Positions 7,753 to 17,660 are shown, counted from the stretch's first letter. The stretch is 64,000 nucleotides of DNA from Patescibacteria group bacterium (GCA_041649715.1 JBAZMP010000001.1:82741-146740), one strand, 5' to 3'. Notes: generated from the sequence alone by a model not told the origin. Numbers and translations are program-made.

Positions 7753-8163
7753 TTACTCGAAATTCCAGTATTTCGGGCCGTTTGGACACTGATTGTTCAT
7801 GTCATCCCAGGTGGTGATCTCCAGCTGTTTTGCGATCAGGGTGTAGCTGATCACACCGGGGCCGCAAAGATACTGGTCGAGAATGATGTTTTTACAACAA
7901 TCATCATACCGCCGGACAAGGACCCGGGTACAGCCGTTCACCGGTTTGATAATCTTGAGTTCATACGGAATGAGATCGAGATTTCGGCGCGAATCATGGC
8001 GGGATTGGTTGTCGGGGTTGTAGATGAAGGTGATGTCCTTCATCTGAAAGACATAGAGTCCGTCGGAATTTGTGTTGATCTCATTGGGGTCAAGGAGGCA
8101 TGAGGAGGTTAAGCCGAAGATTATAAGCAGGGTCATAATAAACATCTTGTTCATTTTGATCAC
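7753..8163 (-). CDS. hypothetical Cys-rich secreted lipoprotein
   Basis: Signal peptide with LTSSC lipobox and 7 Cys in the mature part. Followed by the bidirectional terminator at 7713-7742. Confidence 0.4.
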   Translation of the reverse strand: MIKMNKMFIMTLLIIFGLTSSCLLDPNEINTNSDGLYVFQMKDITFIYNPDNQSRHDSRRNLDLIPYELKIIKPVNGCTRVLVRRYDDCCKNIILDQYLCGPGVISYTLIAKQLEITTWDDMNNQCPNGPKYWNFE

Positions 8164-8609
8164 CTCGTTTTAGGAAAGGACATTTGTTTCACAGCACCTT
8201 TGAAAAATCATCTTAGCGCAAAATTGATATTTTGTCAAGCCTAAAAATTATTTCAAGATTTATGTCTGTTGGGATGATTTGCGGACTAGGCCGATTTTAA
8301 GAAAAAAATTTATAATTTTTTCGCATCTTGATTAAGGAATTTGCCCTTGATAAATATACTTTTTTTTATTCTTGATCAGTGAATATTATCAGCCGCATGG
8401 AATAACTTCGGGAAATTTATTTGGCTAGATAACCGACATTTTTGTTTATTATATTGTTATTATTAAGCGCATACTATCTGAAAAATTTTTCAAGGCCAGC
8501 TCTTTTTCGCCCCTATCTATTGTCTGCCAGGAAGAGTATACTATAATCAGGCTCTCTTTAAAGGAGCGCACCTTGTCCAAGGTGCTAAGTTAACCAAAGA
8601 AAGCATCTT

Positions 8610-9161
8610 ATGACTCCCAATATTTCTCCCTCGCACAGCGAGGACGAACTAACCCGAGTTTCGGACGCCAATTCCGAACAAACAATAAGAAAAAGCACGG
8701 CTTCAGGACCCAGCCAGGTCGCCCAAACGGTTTCCACGTCAACTTCGACGCCGACGAGCGAATCAACTAAGACTGAACGCACGGTTGGCGCCACGCCGGG
8801 CGCGGCCAAAGAATACGCCCAGAAAAAGACGCTTTTTCACGCCTACCAAGTAATTTGGTTCATTTTCGGCTTTATTGAAATTGTCCTTGCCTTCCGTTTC
8901 GTACTCAAAGTAATGGGCGCCAATCCTGACGCCGGATTCACCAAATTTGCCTACGGCTTAAGCTATCCGTTTGCCGCTCCATTCTTAAGTATTTTCCAAC
9001 CGACCGCCAATAAAGGCATTGAAACAACTTCTTTCTTTGAGTGGTCAACTATTGTGGCGGCGATCGTTTATGTCGTTATCACCTGGGGTATTACCAAAAT
9101 CTTTAAATTAGGCAAGCCGACTGATTCGAGAGAGGTCGTCGACACCGTTGACAGACAGTAG
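8610..9161 (+). CDS. hypothetical protein with a Ser/Thr-rich N-terminus and a C-terminal YggT-like membrane domain
   Basis: Low-complexity STS-rich region followed by two transmembrane segments. Confidence 0.4.
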   Translation: MTPNISPSHSEDELTRVSDANSEQTIRKSTASGPSQVAQTVSTSTSTPTSESTKTERTVGATPGAAKEYAQKKTLFHAYQVIWFIFGFIEIVLAFRFVLKVMGANPDAGFTKFAYGLSYPFAAPFLSIFQPTANKGIETTSFFEWSTIVAAIVYVVITWGITKIFKLGKPTDSREVVDTVDRQ

Positions 9162-9197
9162 AGCCAGTAGGAGAATTCTTCATCTTCGTCAAATTAT

Positions 9198-9230
9198 AAA
9201 AAAAAGGCGCTTACGCGCCTCTTTTTTATA
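9198..9230. terminator. bidirectional intrinsic terminator
   Basis: aaaaaaa ggcgc ttac gcgcc tctttttt: a GC hairpin flanked by A and T runs. Confidence 0.6.
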
Positions 9231-9252
9231 ATTTTGTGTGAAATTTGTTCCC

Positions 9253-9447
9253 TATCTAATCAGTGGCTCTGCGCCGCTGAAAAAAATAAATTTATCGTCT
9301 GGAGCCGGTTTTACGAAAAAGTTCGCACCTTTTTCGTCTGACCGGTCGGCGGGCGGCCGGTGCGCGGGGGGGTCGGCCGCCCGCCCTGTCCGCGCTTTTT
9401 CTTAAAAAGCCTTCCTTTTTCGTGCCACGCTTCACGTGGCGCGCCGC
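9253..9447. repeat. inverted repeat copy A of the recombinase-associated repeat; 9297-9423 (127 bp) is 100% identical to the reverse complement of 14483-14609
   Basis: Direct comparison with the reverse complement of 14460-14705. The outer 45 nt are diverged. Contains a 12-bp all-GC hairpin, ggcgggcggccg...cggccgcccgcc, and a terminal hairpin whose stem shows compensatory changes between copies. Confidence 0.85.
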
Positions 9448-9460
9448 AACTATAACAATG

Positions 9461-10045
9461 CTATAAACAATCACTTTTACTTATAGCAAAAAAGAAAGTT
9501 TGAGTTGAGTTTTGCACTTGATAAGAATATTCCATGTTTATATCTTGGTCTAGGAGATTATTCCTTGTTTCTGGTGTTTGGCAAGCATTGGGGGCGATGA
9601 TATTTTTCAGTGACTCATTTGTAAGTTGGCTTGTGTCAATATCATGGAGTGTATAAACATAACGAATTGCATTTGGTTCTGCTAAAATATCAGTCCAAGT
9701 CGTTACCGCATCAACTTGCTGAGGAAGTGTTGATTGGGCTTTTATTTCCTGGACGGATTCCTTGATAATATCCTGTTTAGAGTCGCCCCCTAAAATAGCG
9801 GAAGTACCGTTATATACAACATAACGAGCGACTAAAAATGCCATAATAAAAACTACTATGCCTATAACAGAGCCCACAAGTGATTTAATCTTTTTACTCT
9901 TTTTTCCTGGGGTTTTTTCTGATGTTTTGGGTGTTAATTCAGATTGAACGATTTTACCGCCGCAACTCTTGCAAAATTTTGCATTATCATTATTTTCGTT
10001 ACCACAATTTTTACAATATATTTTTTTCTCTTCGGTATTAGTCAT
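9461..10045 (-). CDS. zinc-ribbon membrane protein: N-terminal CxxC-x-CxxC, one transmembrane helix, extracytoplasmic C-terminal domain
   Basis: CKNCGNENNDNAKFCKSCG followed by a hydrophobic helix. Confidence 0.45.
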   Translation of the reverse strand: MTNTEEKKIYCKNCGNENNDNAKFCKSCGGKIVQSELTPKTSEKTPGKKSKKIKSLVGSVIGIVVFIMAFLVARYVVYNGTSAILGGDSKQDIIKESVQEIKAQSTLPQQVDAVTTWTDILAEPNAIRYVYTLHDIDTSQLTNESLKNIIAPNACQTPETRNNLLDQDINMEYSYQVQNSTQTFFFAISKSDCL

Positions 10046-10226
10046 AAATTAGTAATTAAATATTATTTTATTTATTCTGCACGGCTAGGCTCCAGATAGC
10101 AAGCTTGATTTTATTAGGTAGGTTTTTAAGGGTATAGTATTTTTTGTGTACCGCTCTTGTCCCGTCGGATGACGGGATCACGGGGCGCGCCGCAATGGAT
10201 ATAAAAAATTGGTTAGGGTTTCTATG

Positions 10227-11102
10227 TTAATTCATTATATTATTATTTCGGAAAATATCAAGAAACGAGGGAGTTGCATGACCAAAAGAGTATGAAGCGT
10301 TTAGGGTTTCTATATATGCCTGTTCTTTATATATTTTTAGTAATTTTTTCCCCTCATCAGTAATTGGCACCTCTTTCTCATTGATTTTTATTACCTTATA
10401 GCCACTCACAATTGATACAAGGCGGCCAGTCCTGATATCAAAAATTGGGCCACCACTATTTCCAGGGTTGAAAGCCATTGTAAATTCATATAGGTATTTA
10501 TCTTTAGAAGTTTGATATCTACAGTTAATAACACCCTTGTCGACCCTAAGTAGTATGTTACCAATTAATGGTTTACTTAAATCATTATTGGCAAAATCCA
10601 ATTTGCACAAAGGATATCCCAAAACACCAACTTCCGACCCAATCGGTAAAAAATCTTTTGAGATTCTAACAAAATCATTTCTATCTGCTAATATTTTGTC
10701 GTCAACCTGATAGAATTCCTTATCTAAATTAAATATTGCTAAGTCAATCTCGGGGAAAATAAACAAATCTTTATTTATTTTTGGTTCATAAATTCTATAG
10801 TGCCAACTATTATCATCGTCGTGTTTTAACAAATAATATTTGTCACCATCATGGTGCTGAGACGACTCATCTTTTTGAGTATTACTAACAACATGAGCAG
10901 CGGTTAATAATTTCTCCTGTGCTGCCACAAAACCAGTCCCAAGTGTGGTCCACCTAATTACTTGTTGATCGTTAATTTTTTCACTTCTACCACGTACAAT
11001 TATATAAACTGATTTTTTTAGCCACCTCACACATTCAGAAAATGAATGAAATTTTTCTGGTCTTTTTGGGATTCTGATTTTTTTATCTTTTGACATATTC
11101 AC
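10227..11102 (-). CDS. trypsin-like (S1 family) serine protease
   Basis: Catalytic triad context TAAHVV (His), DLAIF (Asp) and GNSGGPIF (Ser). Confidence 0.7.
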   Translation of the reverse strand: MNMSKDKKIRIPKRPEKFHSFSECVRWLKKSVYIIVRGRSEKINDQQVIRWTTLGTGFVAAQEKLLTAAHVVSNTQKDESSQHHDGDKYYLLKHDDDNSWHYRIYEPKINKDLFIFPEIDLAIFNLDKEFYQVDDKILADRNDFVRISKDFLPIGSEVGVLGYPLCKLDFANNDLSKPLIGNILLRVDKGVINCRYQTSKDKYLYEFTMAFNPGNSGGPIFDIRTGRLVSIVSGYKVIKINEKEVPITDEGKKLLKIYKEQAYIETLNASYSFGHATPSFLDIFRNNNIMN

Positions 11103-11135
11103 AACTTTAAAGGTGGGTTATTAAAAATCAATAAA

Positions 11136-13067
11136 CTACCTTTGGAATTTTTTTTCAACTAAGAATTTATGAATTTTATGCCCATATTGATTAACAAGCC
11201 TATTATGTTGGACGCTCACGGCGGCTGATGCCTCACCTAAAAATGGTTCCCCACTTTCAATTTTTCTTTTAGCAATTTCACGACAAACTGCTTCAACAAC
11301 TAGTTCAGCAAGCATAACTTGGCAGTGTCCTTCTTCTTGATTTTCGCCCTGTGGGCCAAAATACATTTCTACAGACGGTGCTTTTGTCGCAATAATTACT
11401 TGGCCACTAGATTGCTCAAACCTAACCCTTTGACGAGGATCAGCAATAGGACTGAAAGTAATTTCTCTAAATAAACCAGCTTTCTTTTTATCTGTAGGTT
11501 CTGGCGTTTTTCTTTTTGAAATGACTTTTACTAATGCCTCTGCTTGCAAGTTATTTGCAATTGCAGTGATTACTCCTTCTGCACCAACTTGTTTACCAAT
11601 AACATGGATCTGTGTAGTTACAATACCGCTTTCATCAGCACCTTTCTCATTTAGTACTATTTTAGGATTTATGACAATAACATTGTTATTGTCACTATTA
11701 ATTTTTATGGTCGCTCCAGGCGGTAATTTTAGGGGAACGATTACTTTAAGAGTAAGAGTTGCTTGGCAATCGACTACTAATTGACTATAGTCAGGGACAA
11801 AATCAAATCCATTTGGAGGTGGTTCATTAATAGTACCCTCCGACCCACCTGTCCCTTCGCCTTTAGTGTCTTCTAGCTCTAATTTAGCAATTTTATTTAA
11901 TTCAGGAAGGGCTGATTGAAAACGTTTTCTTGTTTTCTCACTCTCTAATTTATTTTCACTTTCTTTAGCCAATTTTTCCTCGTCTTTAACAAATTTTTCA
12001 ACTTCCTTACTAATTATTTGGTCAAGCGCTTTTGAAAAATTATCAGTCCAGTCTATGCCTTGTCGATCTGATCTAATAATTGGCCTTTGTTCTACTCTTA
12101 ATAGATGGTCAATATAATCTACGACTGCCCTTCCGTATAATCTTACGGCGTATATATTACCTTCAAATTTTTTAGTTAGTGTAATATCAAGAACCGCGCC
12201 CTTGGATTTTACTAAAATCCCGCTTTCCCTTAGCGGCCCTTCGTCATCATAGCTACTTAGTGGTTCATCAGACCTATAGAGTTCCAGATCAATTTTTGCC
12301 GCATTATAACCCGGCACAGTAAGTTCAGTATGCTCATATAATTTCCCTTTTGGTAATATATACGATAGTTCCTCTTGCCTTTTAATTTTCTCTCTCCCAT
12401 TCTTTTCGATTAGGACTACTTCTCTCATTTTGCTGCTCATTATGTCTCGCAGACTATAATAATGCTCCAATTGCCTTTTTAAATTATCATATTGCGGAAT
12501 TCTAATTTGAGAATTTAGAGCTTTTAGAGTTATACAGGTTCCGTTACTCTCAATTCCGATATCTTTTCGCATCTGTTTTGTGACTTTACATGGTATATAG
12601 CGTTTATAGTTAAGATGTTCAAGAATGCATTTGTTATACGATTGCTCTATAACTGATTCAACGGTACCATAACCAAAAGCGATCATGGCTTCTTTTAATC
12701 CTCTGCCCCAATACCCTCTTCCAGCTTGTTCTTCCGTAAATTCACTTGTATCGCCACCATATTCAGCGACGCGCTCATCCATCTTAAACTCATTAAAACC
12801 CTCGGCATAATCGATTACTCGCACTACTGATCCTTGACGTTTTCTGATAAGTTCAATTATTATTTTTCCACTATTTTTAATATTTTTATTCTCAAGTCGT
12901 CGATAGGAGTCATCACAATTTGTGATTAACTCAATAAGTGCCAAAACCGCATTATTTTTAATTGTGGCTCTAGCTTGTTGTTCGGCAACACGTTGATGTA
13001 AGTGAATTTGTTTATTGACTGCGATGTCCATAAAATTAATTCTTAATTTTGCGTCTATGCATGCCAC
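11136..13067 (-). CDS. GHKL-superfamily (HATPase_c-like) ATPase domain protein, 643 aa, with a long uncharacterised C-terminal region
   Basis: Bergerat-fold motifs: N-box ELITNCDDS, G1-like IDYAEGF, G2 GRGYWGRGLKEA. Confidence 0.55.
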   Translation of the reverse strand: MACIDAKLRINFMDIAVNKQIHLHQRVAEQQARATIKNNAVLALIELITNCDDSYRRLENKNIKNSGKIIIELIRKRQGSVVRVIDYAEGFNEFKMDERVAEYGGDTSEFTEEQAGRGYWGRGLKEAMIAFGYGTVESVIEQSYNKCILEHLNYKRYIPCKVTKQMRKDIGIESNGTCITLKALNSQIRIPQYDNLKRQLEHYYSLRDIMSSKMREVVLIEKNGREKIKRQEELSYILPKGKLYEHTELTVPGYNAAKIDLELYRSDEPLSSYDDEGPLRESGILVKSKGAVLDITLTKKFEGNIYAVRLYGRAVVDYIDHLLRVEQRPIIRSDRQGIDWTDNFSKALDQIISKEVEKFVKDEEKLAKESENKLESEKTRKRFQSALPELNKIAKLELEDTKGEGTGGSEGTINEPPPNGFDFVPDYSQLVVDCQATLTLKVIVPLKLPPGATIKINSDNNNVIVINPKIVLNEKGADESGIVTTQIHVIGKQVGAEGVITAIANNLQAEALVKVISKRKTPEPTDKKKAGLFREITFSPIADPRQRVRFEQSSGQVIIATKAPSVEMYFGPQGENQEEGHCQVMLAELVVEAVCREIAKRKIESGEPFLGEASAAVSVQHNRLVNQYGHKIHKFLVEKKFQR

Positions 13068-13704
13068 CTACGTATTTTTTATCTAACTCCATAGGTGAGT
13101 TAAGCAGCCTGGAGAATCTCGTTTCGCACATTTTAAGAAATTCTACCAAGTCATTTCTGTTATAATCTTCGACAGCTTCAAATAATTGTTGTAAGTTTTT
13201 TCTCCTCGTTTCCGGAAGGGAATCGAGGGTACAGTATATTAAATCACAAAACTCAAATTCGGATATCTTTATTGTATTTCCAACTCTAAGATACTCTTTA
13301 TATTTACTATTTTCTTCCAGTTGTTTAACTAATCGACCACTTTTTGTCCTTCGGTCGCCTTTAATCGCAAGTAGTTTCTTTGTGTCTATTTCGTGAGCTC
13401 CAAGAACTTTACGAATCTTTTGAACGATATTTAAACCTCGGCCCGTAATTTCGAATCCCTGAGCCTTACTGCCTGTAATTAAGCCTTTGTCTGTTCTACA
13501 TCTTAACCAACATTTTTCAACCTGAGATGAATCAGGATATTTTGAAATATAACCAGGCAATCCGAATCTTTGTGGAAAAAGCTCATAACATTCAACAACA
13601 AGATTCTCAAAGTTTGTTACTTTATTCCTCTGGATTAATGAGTATAAGGCAAATACTAATAAATCATCATAAGGAATTTTATTATAAATTTTTGGGTCAA
13701 ACAT
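13036..13704 (-). CDS. hypothetical protein, 222 aa, in an operon with the GHKL ATPase
   Basis: ORF overlaps the downstream gene by about 30 nt, suggesting translational coupling. No motif recognised. Confidence 0.4.
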   Translation of the reverse strand: MFDPKIYNKIPYDDLLVFALYSLIQRNKVTNFENLVVECYELFPQRFGLPGYISKYPDSSQVEKCWLRCRTDKGLITGSKAQGFEITGRGLNIVQKIRKVLGAHEIDTKKLLAIKGDRRTKSGRLVKQLEENSKYKEYLRVGNTIKISEFEFCDLIYCTLDSLPETRRKNLQQLFEAVEDYNRNDLVEFLKMCETRFSRLLNSPMELDKKYVGGMHRRKIKN

Positions 13705-13712
13705 AATATTAT

Positions 13713-13952
13713 CTATTTAAGCTTAAATCTTTGATCTTTGGTTGTGTGGTGAAATTTTGATTTAACGTCGCGGACCATTTTTTCAATAGAATCAAAAATT
13801 TTTCGGACATCACTTTCCGTATAATCATATGCTTGACGATTCGCACAATTCCCTAAAATCATAAGTTTATTTAAAACTTCATTTGTTCTGTATTCGGCAA
13901 GTCTTTTAAATCTATCTGCTTTTGACTCGTTAATTGGGGGTTTGGGTTTCAT
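13713..13952 (-). CDS. hypothetical small basic protein, 79 aa
   Basis: Tightly spaced within the minus-strand operon. Confidence 0.35.
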   Translation of the reverse strand: MKPKPPINESKADRFKRLAEYRTNEVLNKLMILGNCANRQAYDYTESDVRKIFDSIEKMVRDVKSKFHHTTKDQRFKLK

Positions 13953-14130
13953 TGTATTTTTTTAAATCTTAAATTATTGAATTACTTATGAGTTTACTTA
14001 AAGGTTAAAAAATGGTTATATCATCTAAAAATTAGTCTAATACCATTAGTAATCATTGTCAAGATATAATATTGTGGATAACTAAAAAAGACCGAATTAA
14101 ATCGGCTAATATTAGCGAAAAAATACTATT

Positions 14131-14352
14131 CTAATTAATAAAGTAATAAATCTGCTTTTTATATATTTCGGCAAAGCGCTTTAATTCAATAATATCCACT
14201 CTTTGGTCCCCCGCCTCAACCTTTGATATATAGGATTGAGGCTCTTTAAGTTTATTGGCGACCTGTATTTGGGTTAATCCGGCCTCAATACGAGCTTTTT
14301 TTAGCTTTTGGATCAGTTTTTTATACTCTTCAAAATATATTGTGCTTGACAT
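14131..14352 (-). CDS. XRE-family helix-turn-helix transcriptional regulator
   Basis: LTQIQVANKLKEPQSYISKVEAG is a typical Cro/C1 HTH. Direct repeats ttctaattttgaatat and tcttaatttgaatat lie upstream at about 14360-14395. Confidence 0.7.
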   Translation of the reverse strand: MSSTIYFEEYKKLIQKLKKARIEAGLTQIQVANKLKEPQSYISKVEAGDQRVDIIELKRFAEIYKKQIYYFIN

Positions 14353-14459
14353 GGTTATATGATATATTCAAATTAAGAATATTCAAAATTAGAATATTAC
14401 AAAAGGGGAGTAAAGACGTGCGTATGGGTGGGCGGGGCAAACGTTAAGAGGTTTAAAAG

Positions 14460-14705
14460 CGGCGCATCTCCCGAAGGGAGATACGAAAAAGGAAGGCTTT
14501 TTAAGAAAAAGCGCGGACAGGGCGGGCGGCCGACCCCCCCCGCGCACCGGCCGCCCGCCGACCGGTCAGACGAAAAAGGTGCGAACTTTTTCGTAAAACC
14601 GGCTCCAGTTCGTAAATTGCGATTTTTTTGTGGCGAATAACCACTGATTAGATAATAAAATTAGGGCTTTTTGCCCGAAGACTTGGAAGTTCGACACCCG
14701 CGACG
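14460..14705. repeat. inverted repeat copy B: inverted relative to both copy A (9253-9447) and copy C (16139-16229)
   Basis: Reverse complement of 14483-14609 equals 9297-9423. Reverse complement of 14609-14705 equals 16139-16229 over about 92 bp. Confidence 0.85.
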
Positions 14706-14773
14706 ACGGGGGGCTCCGCCGGAGGCGGAGCAGCCAATTTTTCTAAGTTTAAATAAAAGCGAAAGCGACAACT

Positions 14774-16237
14774 ATGAAATATTTAATTTACGCCAGAAAA
14801 TCAACGGACGAGGACGACCGGCAAGTATTGTCCATAGAATCGCAAATAACAGAATTAAGAGAATTTGCCGTCAAGGAAAATTTAGAAATTATTGATGAAT
14901 ACATAGAAAGCAAGACGGCCAAAGCGCCCGGTCGTCCTCTTTTTAATAAAATGATAGAACGAATTGAAAAAAACGGTCCCATGGGAATTTTGGCGTGGCA
15001 TCCCGACCGATTGGCGAGAAACAGCATTGACGGAGGGAAAATTATTTATTTGGTTGATACCGGCAAAATCGGCGGTTTAAAGTTTCCCACTTTTTGGTTT
15101 GATGCCACGCCGCAGGGAAAATTCATGCTTAATATCGCTTTCGGCCAGAGCAAATACTATATTGATAACTTGTGTGAAAACATCAAGCGCGGCATACGCC
15201 AGAAATTAAGAAGAGGCGAATGGCCAGGGCTCGCGCCATTAGGGTATCTCAACGAATTGCGCCACCATACAATTATTAAAGACCCCGAGCGTTGGCCCAT
15301 AGTCAAAAAACTCTTTGAGGCGTATGCCGCGGGCAATCATACTTTGGAAAGTTTAAAACAGTTGTCGCTTTCGCTGGGCTTGGTGAGCCGAAGGTCCGGA
15401 AAACCGATAGTCATCACGATACTTTCGGATATGCTGACCAATCCGTTTTATTACGGCGTATTCGAGCACAGCGGTGAAATGCACCAGGGGACGCACGAGC
15501 CGATCATTACCAAACGGCTTTTTGACGCCGTTCAAAAAATCCATAATACCAAGCGCAAGACAAGAGTAAGAAAAGAGCTGATTCCTTTCGCTTTCCGAGG
15601 CGTATTTACCTGCGGCGAGTGCGGCCGAATGATTACGGCGGAAAGAAAGAAAAAGCCGTCAGGATTGAAATATATTTATTACCGCTGTACGAAAAAGAAT
15701 GTTGTTTGTTCCCAGAAATTCCTGGAAGAAAGGCGATTGGTCAGCCAGATTAATAAAACTATTGCGAGCGTCGCCCTTCCCGAAGATTGGAAAGACAAGA
15801 TGATAAAAAGGGTTGACGAAGAGATAAAGCAAGCTAAAACCAAACATCAAGGCGAGATTGTAGTGTTAAAAAATGAGCAAGCTAAGTTAGAATCAAAGCT
15901 TTTGCGACTGCTTGACGAACGGCTTGATCAGGCAATTTCCAAGCAGATTTTTTCCCAAGCAAAACAAAAAATCGTCAACCGGCAGGTTGAGATTAAAGAA
16001 TTGTTGGATGGGTTTAAACGGAAGGGCGACGCTCGGCTCGAACTCTTTAAAGAGTGGATTTTAGAGGCTCACCAAGCCCCTTTTATCGCAAAGCAGGAAA
16101 ATTTAGAAGTTAAGAGAAATTATATACAAAAAATTGGCTCGAACTTCCAAGTCTTCGGGCAAAAAGCCCTAATTTTATTATCTAATCAGTGGTTATTCGC
16201 CACAAAAAAATCGCAATTTACGAACTGGAGCGGGTGA
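14774..16237 (+). CDS. large serine recombinase (resolvase/integrase family with recombinase domain, zinc ribbon and coiled coil)
   Basis: N-terminal YARKSTDEDDRQVLSIESQ with the catalytic Ser-containing motif; recombinase domain. C-terminal Cys cluster CGECG...YYRC. The last roughly 30 codons lie inside repeat copy C. Confidence 0.75.
   Translation: MKYLIYARKSTDEDDRQVLSIESQITELREFAVKENLEIIDEYIESKTAKAPGRPLFNKMIERIEKNGPMGILAWHPDRLARNSIDGGKIIYLVDTGKIGGLKFPTFWFDATPQGKFMLNIAFGQSKYYIDNLCENIKRGIRQKLRRGEWPGLAPLGYLNELRHHTIIKDPERWPIVKKLFEAYAAGNHTLESLKQLSLSLGLVSRRSGKPIVITILSDMLTNPFYYGVFEHSGEMHQGTHEPIITKRLFDAVQKIHNTKRKTRVRKELIPFAFRGVFTCGECGRMITAERKKKPSGLKYIYYRCTKKNVVCSQKFLEERRLVSQINKTIASVALPEDWKDKMIKRVDEEIKQAKTKHQGEIVVLKNEQAKLESKLLRLLDERLDQAISKQIFSQAKQKIVNRQVEIKELLDGFKRKGDARLELFKEWILEAHQAPFIAKQENLEVKRNYIQKIGSNFQVFGQKALILLSNQWLFATKKSQFTNWSG
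16139..16229. repeat. inverted repeat copy C: a 92-bp perfect inverted partner of 14609-14705, ending at the CCA end of tRNA-Gly(GCC)
   Basis: Direct comparison. The repeat stops at ctggagc, overlapping the tRNA 3' terminus. Confidence 0.85.
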
Positions 16238-16301
16238 GCGGAGTCGAACCGCCGACCTTCTCCTTGGCAAGGAGACGTTCTAGCCACTGAACTACACCCG
16301 C
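16226..16301 (-). tRNA. tRNA-Gly, anticodon GCC, discriminator U; CCA encoded
   Basis: Reverse complement gives acceptor gcgggtg/cacccgc, anticodon stem tctcc/ggaga with loop ttGCCaa, T-arm ggcggttcgactccgct, terminal tcca. Confidence 0.85.
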
Positions 16302-16312
16302 ATGGTTTTTTA

Positions 16313-16384
16313 AGGTCACGGGCGGATTCGAACCGCCGAATAACGGTTTTGCAGACCGTTGCCTTACCACTTGGCTACGTGACC
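16313..16384 (-). tRNA. tRNA-Cys, anticodon GCA, discriminator U; no CCA
   Basis: Acceptor ggtcacg/cgtgacc, anticodon stem acggt/accgt with loop ctGCAaa, T-arm ggcggttcgaatccgcc. Confidence 0.85.
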
Positions 16385-16419
16385 ATAGTTTATAACTGTG
16401 ATAATTCCTTTTTGAAAAT

Positions 16420-16478
16420 AAAGTTCATTTTCGAAGACCACTTTCCGCCCAAGGCGGACCCGCCTCTGGCGGGGGCTA
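16420..16478 (-). pseudogene. tRNA-Cys-like fragment: ttcgaa, then GC hairpins, then a 12-nt copy of the tRNA-Cys 5' end (ggctacgtgacc)
   Basis: ggctacgtgacc at 16467-16478 duplicates 16373-16384. The preceding ccgcccaaggcgg and cccgcctctggcggg hairpins replace the tRNA body. Confidence 0.45.
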
Positions 16479-16531
16479 CGTGACCGAAACGGTATTTAAT
16501 ATTCTAGCAAATTCCTTAGAATTTACAAGGC

Positions 16532-17029
16532 TCAAAGAGTGATTTCCCGAAATTCATTTTTCATATTTTTGAGATCAAAAACGGCGAAGGAGGGGTATTG
16601 GAACATGCCGCCGGCCGTGCCGGGATTTAGCAGATATGTGTTTTTTATTTTTTCAAAAGTTTTTAAATGAGTATGGCCATAGCAGACCAGATCAAAACGG
16701 CCGGCGGACACGAATTTTTTCGCCTGGTCGGGAAAGTGGGTCAGCGCGATCTTTTTGCCGTCAAGGATAAATTCTCCGGCTTGACCGTAGTGTGTGACCT
16801 TGCTTTTGTTTTCCTCGGCCACTATTTTTTCCCGTTCGCGGTCGGCGACGTTTCCGTAGACGAGATTAATGTGGCCGTCAAAATCTTCGGCCATTTTCGC
16901 AAGCATTATCGGCGAAGCCAAATCACCGCAGTAGATCAAATTTGCTATCTTTTCTTTTTTAATGATTTTACTGATGATTTGCCAATCAGCATAATTATCG
17001 TGCAGATCGGATAAAATGGCGATTTTCAT
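16532..17029 (-). CDS. YfcE-like metallophosphoesterase (MJ0936 family)
   Basis: DLHDN...GDLASP...GNVAD...GHTH phosphoesterase motifs. Confidence 0.7.
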   Translation of the reverse strand: MKIAILSDLHDNYADWQIISKIIKKEKIANLIYCGDLASPIMLAKMAEDFDGHINLVYGNVADREREKIVAEENKSKVTHYGQAGEFILDGKKIALTHFPDQAKKFVSAGRFDLVCYGHTHLKTFEKIKNTYLLNPGTAGGMFQYPSFAVFDLKNMKNEFREITL

Positions 17030-17033
17030 AGAT

Positions 17034-17660
17034 TTAGATATAGCCCTTTATTTTGAATAATATTATGGCGCCGTATTCGCGGATCATTTGTTTGAAATAA
17101 ATTATTTTATCCCAAGGTCCCTGGCGGAAAAGCAGGGATTTATTAACGGGCTGGCAGTAAATTTCAGCCGTAAGTTTTTCAAAAATTGCGCAAGCCCTTT
17201 TCGTATGATACGGCGAGGTGACAACCAGGGCATTTTTGTCGCCCCGATTAGCCATGATTGCCAGCGAATTGACGGCATTTTCGTAAGTATTTTTTGAAGC
17301 GGATTCTTTGAGGATCTTGAGCGGGTCGGCACCGATAGAGAGGGCGTAGCCGGTCATTATATCGCTTTCCGTCCAGAGGCGGTTTTTGGCCTGGCCGCCG
17401 GCCAGAAGCAAATAAGGGGCGTATTCTTCTTGCGACAAGACGACACCCATTTTCACTCTTTCCTGGGTTTGTTTGTTCAGTGTTCCGTCTTTTTTAATCC
17501 CGCCGCCCAGAACGATAATGACATCGCTTTTTTGGCGGCCATCTTTTTTAACAAGCGGCTGCGCTAGTAAGTCATTGAACGGCGTGATCTCGATGGCGAG
17601 GAATAAAATTATCAAGAAACTGCCGAAAAAATAAAGGAATTTTTGCCATTTATTGCCCAT
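17034..17660 (-). CDS. DUF218 / YdcF (ElyC/SanA-like) family protein
   Basis: VIIVLGGGI...LLLAGG...VTSPYHTKRA motif pattern. Confidence 0.6.
   Translation of the reverse strand: MGNKWQKFLYFFGSFLIILFLAIEITPFNDLLAQPLVKKDGRQKSDVIIVLGGGIKKDGTLNKQTQERVKMGVVLSQEEYAPYLLLAGGQAKNRLWTESDIMTGYALSIGADPLKILKESASKNTYENAVNSLAIMANRGDKNALVVTSPYHTKRACAIFEKLTAEIYCQPVNKSLLFRQGPWDKIIYFKQMIREYGAIILFKIKGYI

What the first reader, a model, noticed from the sequence alone, without database searches (positions are those of the whole stretch)
9461..14352. Six-gene operon inside the inverted repeats: XRE HTH, two unknowns, GHKL ATPase, trypsin-like protease, Zn-ribbon membrane protein. Candidate novel defence-like system
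The genes are co-oriented and tightly packed, with one 32-nt overlap between the 222-aa and 643-aa ORFs. The first gene is an XRE regulator with direct repeats in its upstream region. The 643-aa protein has GHKL (Bergerat) ATPase motifs at its N-terminus and about 450 residues of unassigned sequence. Downstream are an S1 serine protease with an intact His/Asp/Ser triad and a membrane protein with an N-terminal zinc ribbon. An ATPase plus protease under an HTH switch, carried on a recombinase-associated repeat-flanked segment beside a tRNA, is the typical context of phage-defence or abortive-infection modules. I do not recognise this particular combination as a named system.
Basis: inference. 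Interest (0 to 1): 0.85.

Follow-up and report, generated by a model that had tools for sequence, protein, structure and literature searches.

The report
Mobile cassette carrying a MORC-like ATPase module
The six genes are real, but they are a mosaic on a recombinase-driven mobile cassette in a Patescibacteria genome. An uncharacterised three-gene module (small protein, winged-helix protein, MORC-like ATPase) sits in the slot that related cassettes fill with restriction-modification systems, so it is a reasonable but untested candidate for a new DNA-directed defence module.

Summary
All six minus-strand ORFs exist and the domain calls hold: XRE HTH, GHKL ATPase, S1 protease with an intact triad, and a Zn-ribbon membrane protein. 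They are not one conserved system.

Among 75 loci from other genomes that encode the ATPase, the 222-aa protein (g3) lies directly beside it in 58. The 79-aa protein (g2) is present in about 13. The protease, the Zn-ribbon protein and the XRE are never there. Among 84 loci that encode the protease, the ATPase is never there. In those loci the protease closes type I and type II restriction-modification operons, some of them headed by close homologues of the XRE.

A defence role is inferred from context only. Interest is moderate.

The parts
14131..14352 (-). g1: XRE/HTH_3 regulator (73 aa). It resembles an R-M controller (C) protein and is the head gene of the cassette.
   Evidence: Pfam HTH_3 8.8e-12. 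PADLOC HTH_VI, capH and Control_protein hits. Homologues at 52-60% identity head protease-terminated R-M cassettes in L109, L114, L116, L124, L130 and L097.
14353..14400 (-). Promoter-like site (TTGAAT-16-TATCAT) overlapped by about 2.5 tandem repeats of AATATTCT(T)AATTT. This is the likely operator for g1.
   Evidence: Function is inferred.
13713..13952 (-). g2: conserved 79-aa protein of unknown fold, an optional first gene of the ATPase module.
   Evidence: Present just upstream of g3 in about 13 of 75 loci, including archaea. No Pfam, PADLOC or PDB match. It also lies next to an unrelated 787-aa protein in L139.
13036..13704 (-). g3: 222-aa protein with an N-terminal winged helix and a helical C-terminal domain. 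It is the obligate partner of the ATPase.
11136..13031 (-). g4: 631-aa GHKL plus S5-fold ATPase (MORC-like), followed by a coiled coil, an Ig-like domain and an unknown C-terminal domain. The true start is the ATG at 13031.
10227..11102 (-). g5: cytoplasmic S1 (Trypsin_2) serine protease. This is a cassette backbone gene, not a partner of the ATPase.
   Evidence: Pfam 2e-13. Triad H70/D120/S216 invariant. It is the terminal gene of R-M operons elsewhere.
9461..10045 (-). g6: Zn-ribbon protein with a single transmembrane segment. It is specific to this window and probably has its own promoter.
   Evidence: Zn_Ribbon_1 1e-6. No homologue in 159 related loci. Promoter-like site at 10261-10234.
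9253..9447 (.). Site A (attL-like). It holds the GC-rich three-hairpin arm Z (9310-9447) plus a 74%-identical remnant of the recombinase 3' end (9253-9309).
14459..14694 (.). Site B, an internal inverted hybrid site. Its Z arm is 88% identical to site A. Its X arm (14598-14694) is 99% identical to site C. It has the form of an inverted attP-like junction.
14774..16237 (+). Large serine recombinase (487 aa), flanked by the 97-nt X inverted repeat.
   Evidence: Resolvase, Recombinase and Zn_ribbon_recom domains. phrog_95 integrase 1.6e-69.
16139..16235 (.). Site C (attR-like). The X arm covers the recombinase 3' end and abuts the 3' tip of tRNA-Gly.
16226..16301 (-). tRNA-Gly(GCC), the integration target. 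Homology between the sites breaks at CTGGAGC|(G/C)GGT, which is its 3' tip.

Best explanation
The region is a mosaic carried by a small integrative element at the 3' end of tRNA-Gly. The element is driven by a large serine recombinase.

The element family has a backbone. It consists of the recombinase, an XRE/C-protein-like regulator at the head of the cassette, an S1 serine protease at its tail, and GC-rich hairpin-forming inverted repeats around the cassette. Between head and tail is a variable cargo slot. In related elements the slot holds type I or type II restriction-modification genes. Here it holds a self-contained three-gene module, g2-g3-g4.

Proposed working of that module (inferred):
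- g3 binds DNA through its winged helix and recruits or loads g4.
- g4 is a dimerising GHKL plus S5 ATPase of the MORC type. It uses ATP-driven closure of its N-terminal gate, together with its coiled coil, to clamp or compact DNA.
- Because neither protein has a recognisable nuclease, the most likely outcome is ATP-dependent recognition and trapping or silencing of incoming DNA. A weaker alternative is signalling to variable neighbouring genes.
- g1 probably represses the operon from the tandem repeats over its promoter, as C proteins do for restriction enzymes.
- The protease and the Zn-ribbon membrane protein are separate add-ons.

What is shown: gene linkage, folds, catalytic motifs, element architecture and slot replacement. 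What is inferred: the defence role, DNA clamping, and every regulatory step.
For: Linkage of the module:
- g3 lies directly beside g4 in 58 of 75 loci drawn from more than 15 bacterial and archaeal phyla. The gene order is reversed in two archaeal loci.
- The three closest relatives examined keep g2-g3-g4 but have unrelated flanks.
- 342 species-representative genomes encode a relative of g4.
- g3 has 859 clusters at 50% identity and no Pfam family.

Fold of g4:
- All four ATP-binding motifs are invariant.
- g3 has a winged helix.

The pair stands alone:
- 25 of 69 loci have an opposite-strand gene next downstream.
- Only 32 of 69 have a same-strand gene within 150 nt.

Conflict-type context:
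- Immediate neighbours include PIN toxins (9 of 120), DNA methyltransferases (about 9), HNH, Fic, LAGLIDADG and a transposase.
- An AbrB+PIN pair sits directly upstream of g3 in about 10 loci.
- Distribution is sporadic, and cassette GC is 32-37% against 41-45% outside.
- The module is absent from 50,697 phage records and nearly absent from IMG/VR, so it is a cellular rather than a viral gene set.

Slot replacement:
- In protease loci the genes between XRE and protease are type II restriction enzymes (PADLOC REase_II 1.8e-35 and 6.3e-93), methyltransferases, HsdR/M/S, a DUF6602 PD-DExK/NucC-like nuclease, or an Mrr-helicase.
- 17 of 30 distinct loci carry a methyltransferase upstream of the protease.

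Element architecture:
- A recombinase flanked by one inverted repeat lies next to a cassette flanked by a second inverted repeat. This recurs in L109 and L114 with unrelated repeat sequences.
- L114 sits at tRNA-Asn.
Against: - No experiment exists and no member of the family has been characterised.
- No nuclease or other effector domain was found in g2-g4, so 'defence' has no identified killing or blocking step.
- Many g3-g4 loci have ordinary housekeeping neighbours. I ran no statistical null for defence-island enrichment.
- The C-terminal 110 residues of g4 and the helical domain of g3 could hide an activity I could not probe.
- Slot replacement is shown for this one element only. g3-g4 loci elsewhere are generally not inside such cassettes.
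Confidence: 0.5

Rival explanations
1. All six genes form one defence or abortive-infection system. The GHKL ATPase senses infection, the S1 protease and/or the Zn-ribbon membrane protein execute the response, and the XRE is the switch.
For: In this genome g4 and g5 are 33 nt apart and co-oriented inside one repeat-bounded cassette. The protease resembles proteases of defence-associated families: PADLOC RT-Protease_XI 2.1e-10 and PDC-M35A 2.5e-10.
Against: 0 of 75 ATPase loci have a g5, g6 or g1 homologue. 0 of 84 protease loci have g3 or g4. The protease is highly conserved (mean column identity 73%) while its upstream partners change. g6 has its own promoter-like site and no homologue in any related locus.
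Confidence: 0.08
2. g3-g4 is a regulatory pair rather than an effector. A DNA-binding winged-helix protein would be controlled by an ATPase that switches adjacent genes on under stress, in the manner of the CapK/CapS, CapH/CapP or CapW controllers of adjacent immune operons.
For: g3 is a winged-helix protein next to a GHKL protein. Genes downstream of g4 vary, and 32 of 69 loci have a same-strand gene within 150 nt. CapK/CapS shows that a GHKL protein with a wHTH substrate can control neighbouring immune operons (PMC13373217).
Against: 25 of 69 loci have no co-directional downstream gene. g4 has a GHKL plus S5 ATPase fold with a coiled coil and an Ig-like domain, not a SpoIIAB-type kinase. Neither protein has a STAS domain. 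A 631-aa multidomain ATPase is large for a pure regulator.
Confidence: 0.15
3. g2-g3-g4 serves the mobile DNA that carries it. It would act in stabilisation, addiction, or compaction and partition of the element, and not in host defence.
Against: No relative was found in 72,556 plasmids or 50,697 phage records. Most loci show no recombinase or repeats around the pair. Many copies sit among chromosomal housekeeping genes.
Confidence: 0.15
4. XRE plus protease act as a repressor and anti-repressor switch for the element, analogous to ImmR/ImmA of ICEBs1 or CapH/CapP. The protease would cleave the XRE to induce cargo expression or excision. On this reading the protease is regulatory and not an effector. 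This rival concerns g1 and g5 only and is compatible with the best explanation.
For: Close g1 homologues (52-60% identity) head cassettes that end with the protease in at least 6 distinct loci, next to a serine recombinase in L109 and L114. g1 hits the PADLOC capH model at 6.5e-7. The protease is strongly conserved, as expected for a fixed substrate.
Against: Only 9 of 30 distinct protease loci with at least 3 kb of upstream sequence have the XRE. The protease also follows an Mrr-helicase or a DUF6602 nuclease with no XRE present. Known anti-repressor proteases are metallopeptidases or S24 enzymes, not S1 (my own knowledge).
Confidence: 0.2

Closest known systems
Prokaryotic MORC / paraMORC GHKL ATPases of restriction-modification-like systems (Iyer, Abhiman & Aravind 2008, PMC2292703)
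   Different: The associations that define those families are not conserved here: superfamily II helicases, restriction-fold or HNH nucleases, methylases, or fused nuclease or TIR domains. Instead the fixed partner is a winged-helix protein with no Pfam family. The ATPase carries a coiled coil, an Ig-like domain and a novel C-terminal domain.
VcSduA / paraMORC3-type Shedu (GHKL ATPase fused to a DUF4263 PD-(D/E)xK nuclease; PMC12137116)
   Same: A GHKL ATPase with motifs I-IV used in phage defence, predicted to work as a dimer with a clamp-like middle domain.
   Different: g4 shows no DUF4263 or nuclease domain by Pfam, PADLOC or fold. This is a two- or three-gene module, not a single gene.
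CapK/CapS controllers of adjacent immune operons (PMC13373217)
   Same: A GHKL-family protein encoded beside a wHTH DNA-binding protein and next to variable, often immune, genes. VapC-type PIN toxins also recur nearby.
   Different: CapK is an anti-sigma-type kinase with HTH and STAS domains, and CapS is STAS-wHTH. g4 is a GHKL plus S5 ATPase and g3 has no STAS domain. The gene order and protein sizes differ.
C-protein-controlled restriction-modification cassettes
   Same: A small XRE/HTH gene heads the operon, with repeated operator-like sequences over its own promoter. Homologous XREs head true R-M operons in sister cassettes.
   Different: The cargo here has neither a methyltransferase nor a restriction enzyme.
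Large-serine-recombinase integrative elements at tRNA genes, and serine-invertase systems (Hin/Gin) or the yeast 2-micron circle as formal analogues
   Same: Resolvase-Recombinase-Zn-ribbon integrase. attL- and attR-like hybrid sites lie at a tRNA 3' end. Inverted repeats flank the recombinase gene, as for hin, and flank an adjacent segment, as for the Mu G segment.
   Different: A third, internal, inverted attP-like site with 100-200-nt arms gives two adjacent repeat-bounded segments. I know of no described large-serine-recombinase element with this layout (my own knowledge, not a search result).

Membership tests
GHKL (Bergerat-fold) ATPase superfamily | Motifs I (ExxxNxxD), II (DxGxG-like), III (GxxGxG) and IV (GT), and the Bergerat fold. 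| tested here: met
MORC family, strict sense | GHKL domain followed by an S5-fold transducer domain. | tested here: met
MORC family, strict sense | The MORC-specific sequence signature that separates MORCs from paraMORCs (Iyer 2008). | not tested
   The signature is not given in the text I read. The Foldseek ranking does not favour MORC over Hsp90 or Topo VI-B.
Prokaryotic MORC/paraMORC R-M-type operons | Conserved neighbourhood with a superfamily II helicase and/or a restriction-fold or HNH nuclease and/or a DNA methylase. | tested here: not met
   Neighbour clustering finds no conserved helicase or nuclease. Methylases and HNH occur only in a minority, about 9 and about 2-3 of 120 immediate neighbours.
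Shedu type I-D / paraMORC3 | C-terminal DUF4263 PD-(D/E)xK nuclease domain. | tested here: not met
   No Pfam or PADLOC hit for g4 at E<=0.1. The C-terminal half folds as coiled coil, Ig-like domain and a small alpha/beta domain.
CapK/CapS | STAS domains in both proteins and a SpoIIAB-type kinase GHKL domain. | tested here: not met
   No STAS hit. g4 is the GHKL plus S5 type. g3 is a winged helix plus helical domain.
Topoisomerase VI-like (B subunit plus Spo11/A subunit) | The partner protein carries a CAP/winged-helix domain AND a Toprim domain. | tested here: not met
   g4 aligns with Topo VI-B in Foldseek. g3 is all-helical after the winged helix, with no Toprim-type sheet, and has no Pfam hit.
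Any defence system in PADLOC-DB v2.0.0 (includes ietAS, Tiamat, PDC candidates) | An HMM match of the core proteins. | tested here: not met
   No hit for g2, g4 or g6. g3 gives only Cas11b at 1.5e-3. g5 hits only generic protease models. Newer DefenseFinder or PADLOC releases could not be run.
S1 / Trypsin_2 serine proteases | His-Asp-Ser triad in the chymotrypsin fold. | tested here: met
   PF13365 2e-13. H70, D120 and S216 (GNSGGP) are invariant.
Large serine recombinases | Resolvase catalytic domain with an N-terminal Ser, a Recombinase domain and a Zn-ribbon domain. | tested here: met
   PF00239 9.7e-19, PF07508 1.1e-11, PF13408 5e-7. The YARKST motif is present at the N-terminus.
R-M controller (C) proteins | A small HTH protein that heads an operon and autoregulates from repeated operators. 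| tested here: inconclusive
   HTH_3 match and PADLOC Control_protein 1.9e-4. Repeats lie over the promoter. Homologues head true R-M operons. Binding was not tested.

The most novel reading that the evidence does not exclude
g2-g3-g4 is a new, nuclease-free immune or silencing system of the MORC type. A sequence- or structure-reading winged-helix protein loads an ATP-gated clamp that compacts or traps foreign DNA. It would be a prokaryotic counterpart of eukaryotic MORC/SMCHD1 silencing.

It rides on a previously undescribed class of large-serine-recombinase 'cassette carriers' in Patescibacteria. Their circular form would carry two inverted attP copies, a 2-micron-like flip-flop layout. Their XRE and S1-protease backbone would control interchangeable defence cargo.
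Probability: 0.15. Interest if true: 0.8.

Novelty: new variant of a known kind. Interest (0 to 1): 0.55.

Why it matters
If g2-g3-g4 restricts foreign DNA, it would add a widespread module (342 species genomes, bacteria and archaea) that current defence catalogues miss. The catalogues miss it because it lives almost entirely in uncultivated lineages.

It would also give a simple two-protein model for how a MORC-type ATPase is targeted to DNA. That question bears on the origin of eukaryotic MORC and SMCHD1 silencing.

Separately, the cassette family bracketed by an XRE and an S1 protease points to two further things worth following. One is how ultra-small Patescibacteria genomes exchange R-M and other defence cargo. 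The other is an unexplored role for a cytoplasmic S1 protease attached to R-M operons.

Tried and rejected
- Rfam scan of 8000-17500 at E<=1: only the two tRNAs. Nothing for the GC-rich repeat arms.
- Sequence search of g4 against PDB: nothing meaningful. Pfam on g4 itself: no GHKL hit. The assignment needed homologues and a model.
- Protease-ATPase linkage: searched in both directions and not found.
- BLASTN of the window's repeat arms against all 170+ fetched loci: no nucleotide match. The arms in other loci are related only by layout and by short motifs, such as TTGCCGCC just after the last gene and a long GC hairpin. The multiple alignment was too poor to build a covariance model.
- Plasmid and phage collections: no relatives of g4 or g5. 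IMG/VR: 8 distant hits, mostly to the GHKL region only.
- Looked for an empty attB or an alternative orientation via identical flanking proteins. This found only an identical assembly and a contig that breaks in tRNA-Cys.
- Topo VI-like reading: rejected because g3 has no Toprim domain. CapK/CapS reading: rejected on domains. Shedu/paraMORC3 reading: rejected because there is no nuclease.
- The 787-aa protein beside a g2 homologue in L139 is unrelated to g3 and g4.
- Literature searches (GHKL + anti-phage, MORC, HATPase_c_3, DUF6602, trypsin-like + R-M) found no description of this gene set.
- The afdb50 fold library was unavailable.

Full report
**Observation.**
The six minus-strand ORFs exist as described. 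I call them g1 to g6.
- g1 (14352-14131) is an XRE/HTH_3 protein (E 8.8e-12).
- g5 (11102-10227) is a Trypsin_2/S1 protease (2e-13).
- g6 (10045-9461) has an N-terminal zinc ribbon (1e-6) and one hydrophobic helix.
- g2 (79 aa), g3 (222 aa) and g4 have no Pfam, NCBIfam or PADLOC family.

The GHKL call for g4 is correct but cannot be obtained from g4 alone. About half of its 259 detected homologues carry PF13589, HATPase_c_3. The four Bergerat motifs are invariant in alignments of 19 and 81 sequences.

Two details need correcting. First, the 32-nt overlap disappears. Every homologue, and the gene call in an independent assembly, starts at the ATG at 13031. Second, only g2-g5 are tightly packed. 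g1/g2 and g5/g6 are separated by about 180 nt, and these spacers hold terminator- and promoter-like signals. About 2.5 tandem repeats of AATATTCT(T)AATTT overlap the promoter-like site in front of g1.

The cassette is AT-rich (32-37% GC) compared with its surroundings. The source is a Patescibacteria MAG: one search returned a protein 100% identical to g3, named by NCBI as a hypothetical protein of a Patescibacteria group bacterium, on a 608-kb contig. A second assembly is identical over 10 kb.

**What is conserved with what.**
A scan of one genome per GTDB species found 342 loci that encode a relative of g4. I kept 80 of them with 10-kb flanks. They span:
- Bacteria: Patescibacteria, Chloroflexota, Acidobacteriota, Nitrospirota, Ignavibacteria, Planctomycetota, Proteobacteria, Firmicutes, Actinomycetota.
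- Archaea: Nitrososphaerota, Bathyarchaeia and DPANN lineages.

In 58 of the 75 loci with a full g4 ORF, a g3 homologue lies directly beside it. It is almost always immediately upstream, and it is downstream in two Nitrososphaerota loci. g2 homologues precede g3 in about 13 loci. In about 10 others an AbrB+PIN (VapBC-like) pair takes that position. No locus contains a homologue of g5, g6 or g1. The closest relatives (about 60% identity) keep g2-g3-g4 with unrelated flanks.

The converse search started from the protease. It has more than 240 homologues at 55-70% identity, mostly in Patescibacteria. I took 84 metagenomic or genomic protease loci, and none has g3 or g4. The ATPase-protease pairing is therefore peculiar to this genome.

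**The ATPase module.**
The AF2 model of g4 (pLDDT 88) shows:
- a GHKL domain plus an S5-type transducer (residues 1-320);
- two long helices (331-386);
- a disordered linker;
- an Ig-like sandwich (409-504);
- a small alpha/beta domain (523-631).

g3 (pLDDT 79) is a winged helix followed by a helical domain. A conserved GGM motif and a basic tail lie at its C-terminus. Its family has 859 clusters at 50% identity. Many members carry a 100-350-residue insertion between the two domains. g2 is a well-conserved small protein with no detectable relatives of known structure. It also occurs next to an unrelated 787-aa protein.

The pair often stands alone. In 25 of 69 loci the next downstream gene is on the other strand. 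Immediate neighbours are mixed. There are PIN toxins, DNA methyltransferases, HNH, Fic, LAGLIDADG and a transposase, but also many housekeeping genes. The family is absent from 72,556 plasmids and 50,697 phage records and nearly absent from IMG/VR.

**The frame around it.**
The protease is typically the last gene of restriction-modification operons. The arrangements seen are:
- XRE, ApaLI-type REase, N6/N4 methyltransferase, DUF6602 (a PD-DExK/NucC-like nuclease), protease;
- HsdR, HsdM, HsdS, protease, HARE-HTH nuclease-like protein;
- Mrr-helicase, protease.

Of 30 distinct loci with at least 3 kb of upstream sequence, 17 have a methyltransferase there and 9 have a g1-type XRE. Six of these XREs are 52-60% identical to g1 over their full length. 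So g1 and g5 are backbone genes of a cassette family whose middle slot is variable. In the window that slot holds g2-g3-g4. This slot replacement is my main argument that the module does a job comparable to an R-M system. It is an inference.

**The mobile element.**
Three related sites exist:
- Site A (9253-9447).
- Site B (14459-14694), which is inverted.
- Site C (16139-16235).

Read in one orientation, C is X-core-tRNA, B is X-core-Z and A is (diverged X)-core-Z. The core is CTGGAGC, at the 3' tip of tRNA-Gly. A and C therefore look like attL and attR of an element integrated into tRNA-Gly. B is an internal, inverted copy of the attP-type junction.

As a result, the recombinase gene is flanked by a 97-nt repeat at 99% identity, and the cassette is flanked by a repeat of about 195 nt at 88% identity.

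The same double layout occurs with unrelated sequences in two other loci:
- L109, with repeats of 163 and 190 nt.
- L114, with repeats of 169 and 212 nt and the core GGAGCCAAG at the 3' end of tRNA-Asn.

Simpler repeat-bounded protease cassettes occur in L103, L115 and L144. L116 carries the L114 cassette at tRNA-Asn without the recombinase and with only one repeat copy.

The Z arms are GC-rich and hairpin-forming (fold z-scores -3.8 and -3.9). In one hairpin, copies A and B differ in stem sequence yet both still fold into a hairpin. There is no Rfam match. I found no evidence for or against actual inversion or excision. Formally, the excised circle would carry two inverted attP copies, like the yeast 2-micron plasmid. 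I leave this unexplained.

**Mechanism and comparison with known systems.**
The best-supported reading is a mosaic with these parts:
- a large-serine-recombinase element whose backbone is an XRE and an S1 protease;
- a cargo consisting of a winged-helix protein plus a MORC-like ATPase, with an optional small third protein;
- one window-specific membrane protein.

For the module I propose DNA targeting by g3 and ATP-gated clamping or compaction by a g4 dimer. This is the way GHKL plus S5 ATPases work, as established for MutL, topoisomerases and MORC and summarised in PMC2292703. The outcome would be trapping or silencing of incoming DNA rather than cleavage.

The module differs from the families it most resembles:
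- MORC/paraMORC R-M-type operons: the fold is shared, but the helicase, nuclease and methylase partners are missing.
- paraMORC3/Shedu such as VcSduA (PMC12137116): there is no nuclease here.
- CapK/CapS (PMC13373217): there are no STAS domains, and g4 is an ATPase rather than a kinase.
- Topo VI: g3 has no Toprim domain.

**Verdict.**
The 'one six-gene system' interpretation is not. The residue is an uncharacterised, widespread two- to three-gene module in a defence-type slot, carried on an unusual element. I rate it a new variant of a known kind (prokaryotic MORC-like conflict ATPases). Interest is moderate at 0.55. Context evidence is good, but there is no functional evidence and no identified effector step.

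Noticed in passing
window 9253-9447, 14459-14694, 16139-16235; L109 1579-1741/2996-3158 and 3153-3342/6868-7057; L114 806-974/2256-2424 and 2416-2627/6089-6300: Three-site layout: attL-like, inverted internal attP-like, and attR-like. It gives two adjacent segments bounded by inverted repeats, one holding the recombinase gene and one holding the cassette, with a shared 6-9-nt core at a tRNA 3' end. It recurs in independent contigs with unrelated repeat sequences. The excised circle would carry two inverted attP copies.
   Followed up: partly
window 9310-9447 and 14459-14597: The GC-rich Z arms fold into three hairpins (z about -3.8). In hairpin 1, copy A reads GCCACG-UGAAG-CGUGGC and copy B reads AUCUCCC-GAA-GGGAGAU, so the stem is kept with a different sequence. 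Related arms in other loci begin with TTGCCGCC right after the last gene and contain a long GC stem with a G- or C-rich loop. There is no Rfam family, and it is unclear whether DNA or RNA is the relevant form.
   Followed up: partly
window 9253-9309: A 74%-identical remnant of the recombinase 3' end. It would encode LSNQWLCAAEKNKFIVWS, compared with LSNQWLFATKKSQFTNWSG in the recombinase. It lies at the far (attL) side of the island and suggests an earlier or tandem integration at the same tRNA-Gly site.
   Followed up: no
L085-L088, L096, L101, L102, L104 (for example L085 3101-4566): A DUF6602 protein (PADLOC PD_DExK 3.4e-26, NucC-like 5e-10) lies directly upstream of the S1 protease in 9 loci, usually after a type II R-M pair. 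This may be a separate nuclease-plus-protease two-gene unit attached to R-M systems.
   Followed up: partly
L005, L009, L012, L017, L031, L059, L065, L072, L077, L018: An AbrB/SpoVT-type antitoxin plus PIN toxin pair sits immediately upstream of g3-g4 in about 10 loci from different phyla. It occupies the position that g2 takes elsewhere.
   Followed up: no
L116 1297-5221 versus L114 737-6300: The same XRE-REase-MTase-protease cassette (92.7% identity) lies at tRNA-Asn in a second genome. That copy lacks the recombinase and has only one copy of the Z repeat. It is either an immobilised derivative or a product of recombinase loss.
   Followed up: partly
representatives P0305-P0391: Many g3-family proteins are 280-590 aa long. 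They carry a 100-350-residue insertion between the winged helix and the C-terminal helical domain. The content of the insertion was not examined.
   Followed up: no
L139 3769-6353: A g2 homologue is followed by a 787-aa protein with no Pfam match and no similarity to g3 or g4. g2 may be a generic small partner or regulator used by more than one system.
   Followed up: partly
window 14034-14106 and 10234-10261: A terminator-like hairpin after g1 is followed by a 10/12 promoter-like site before g2. The best promoter-like site of the region (11/12) lies inside the 3' end of g5, ahead of g6. This suggests up to three transcription units.
   Followed up: no
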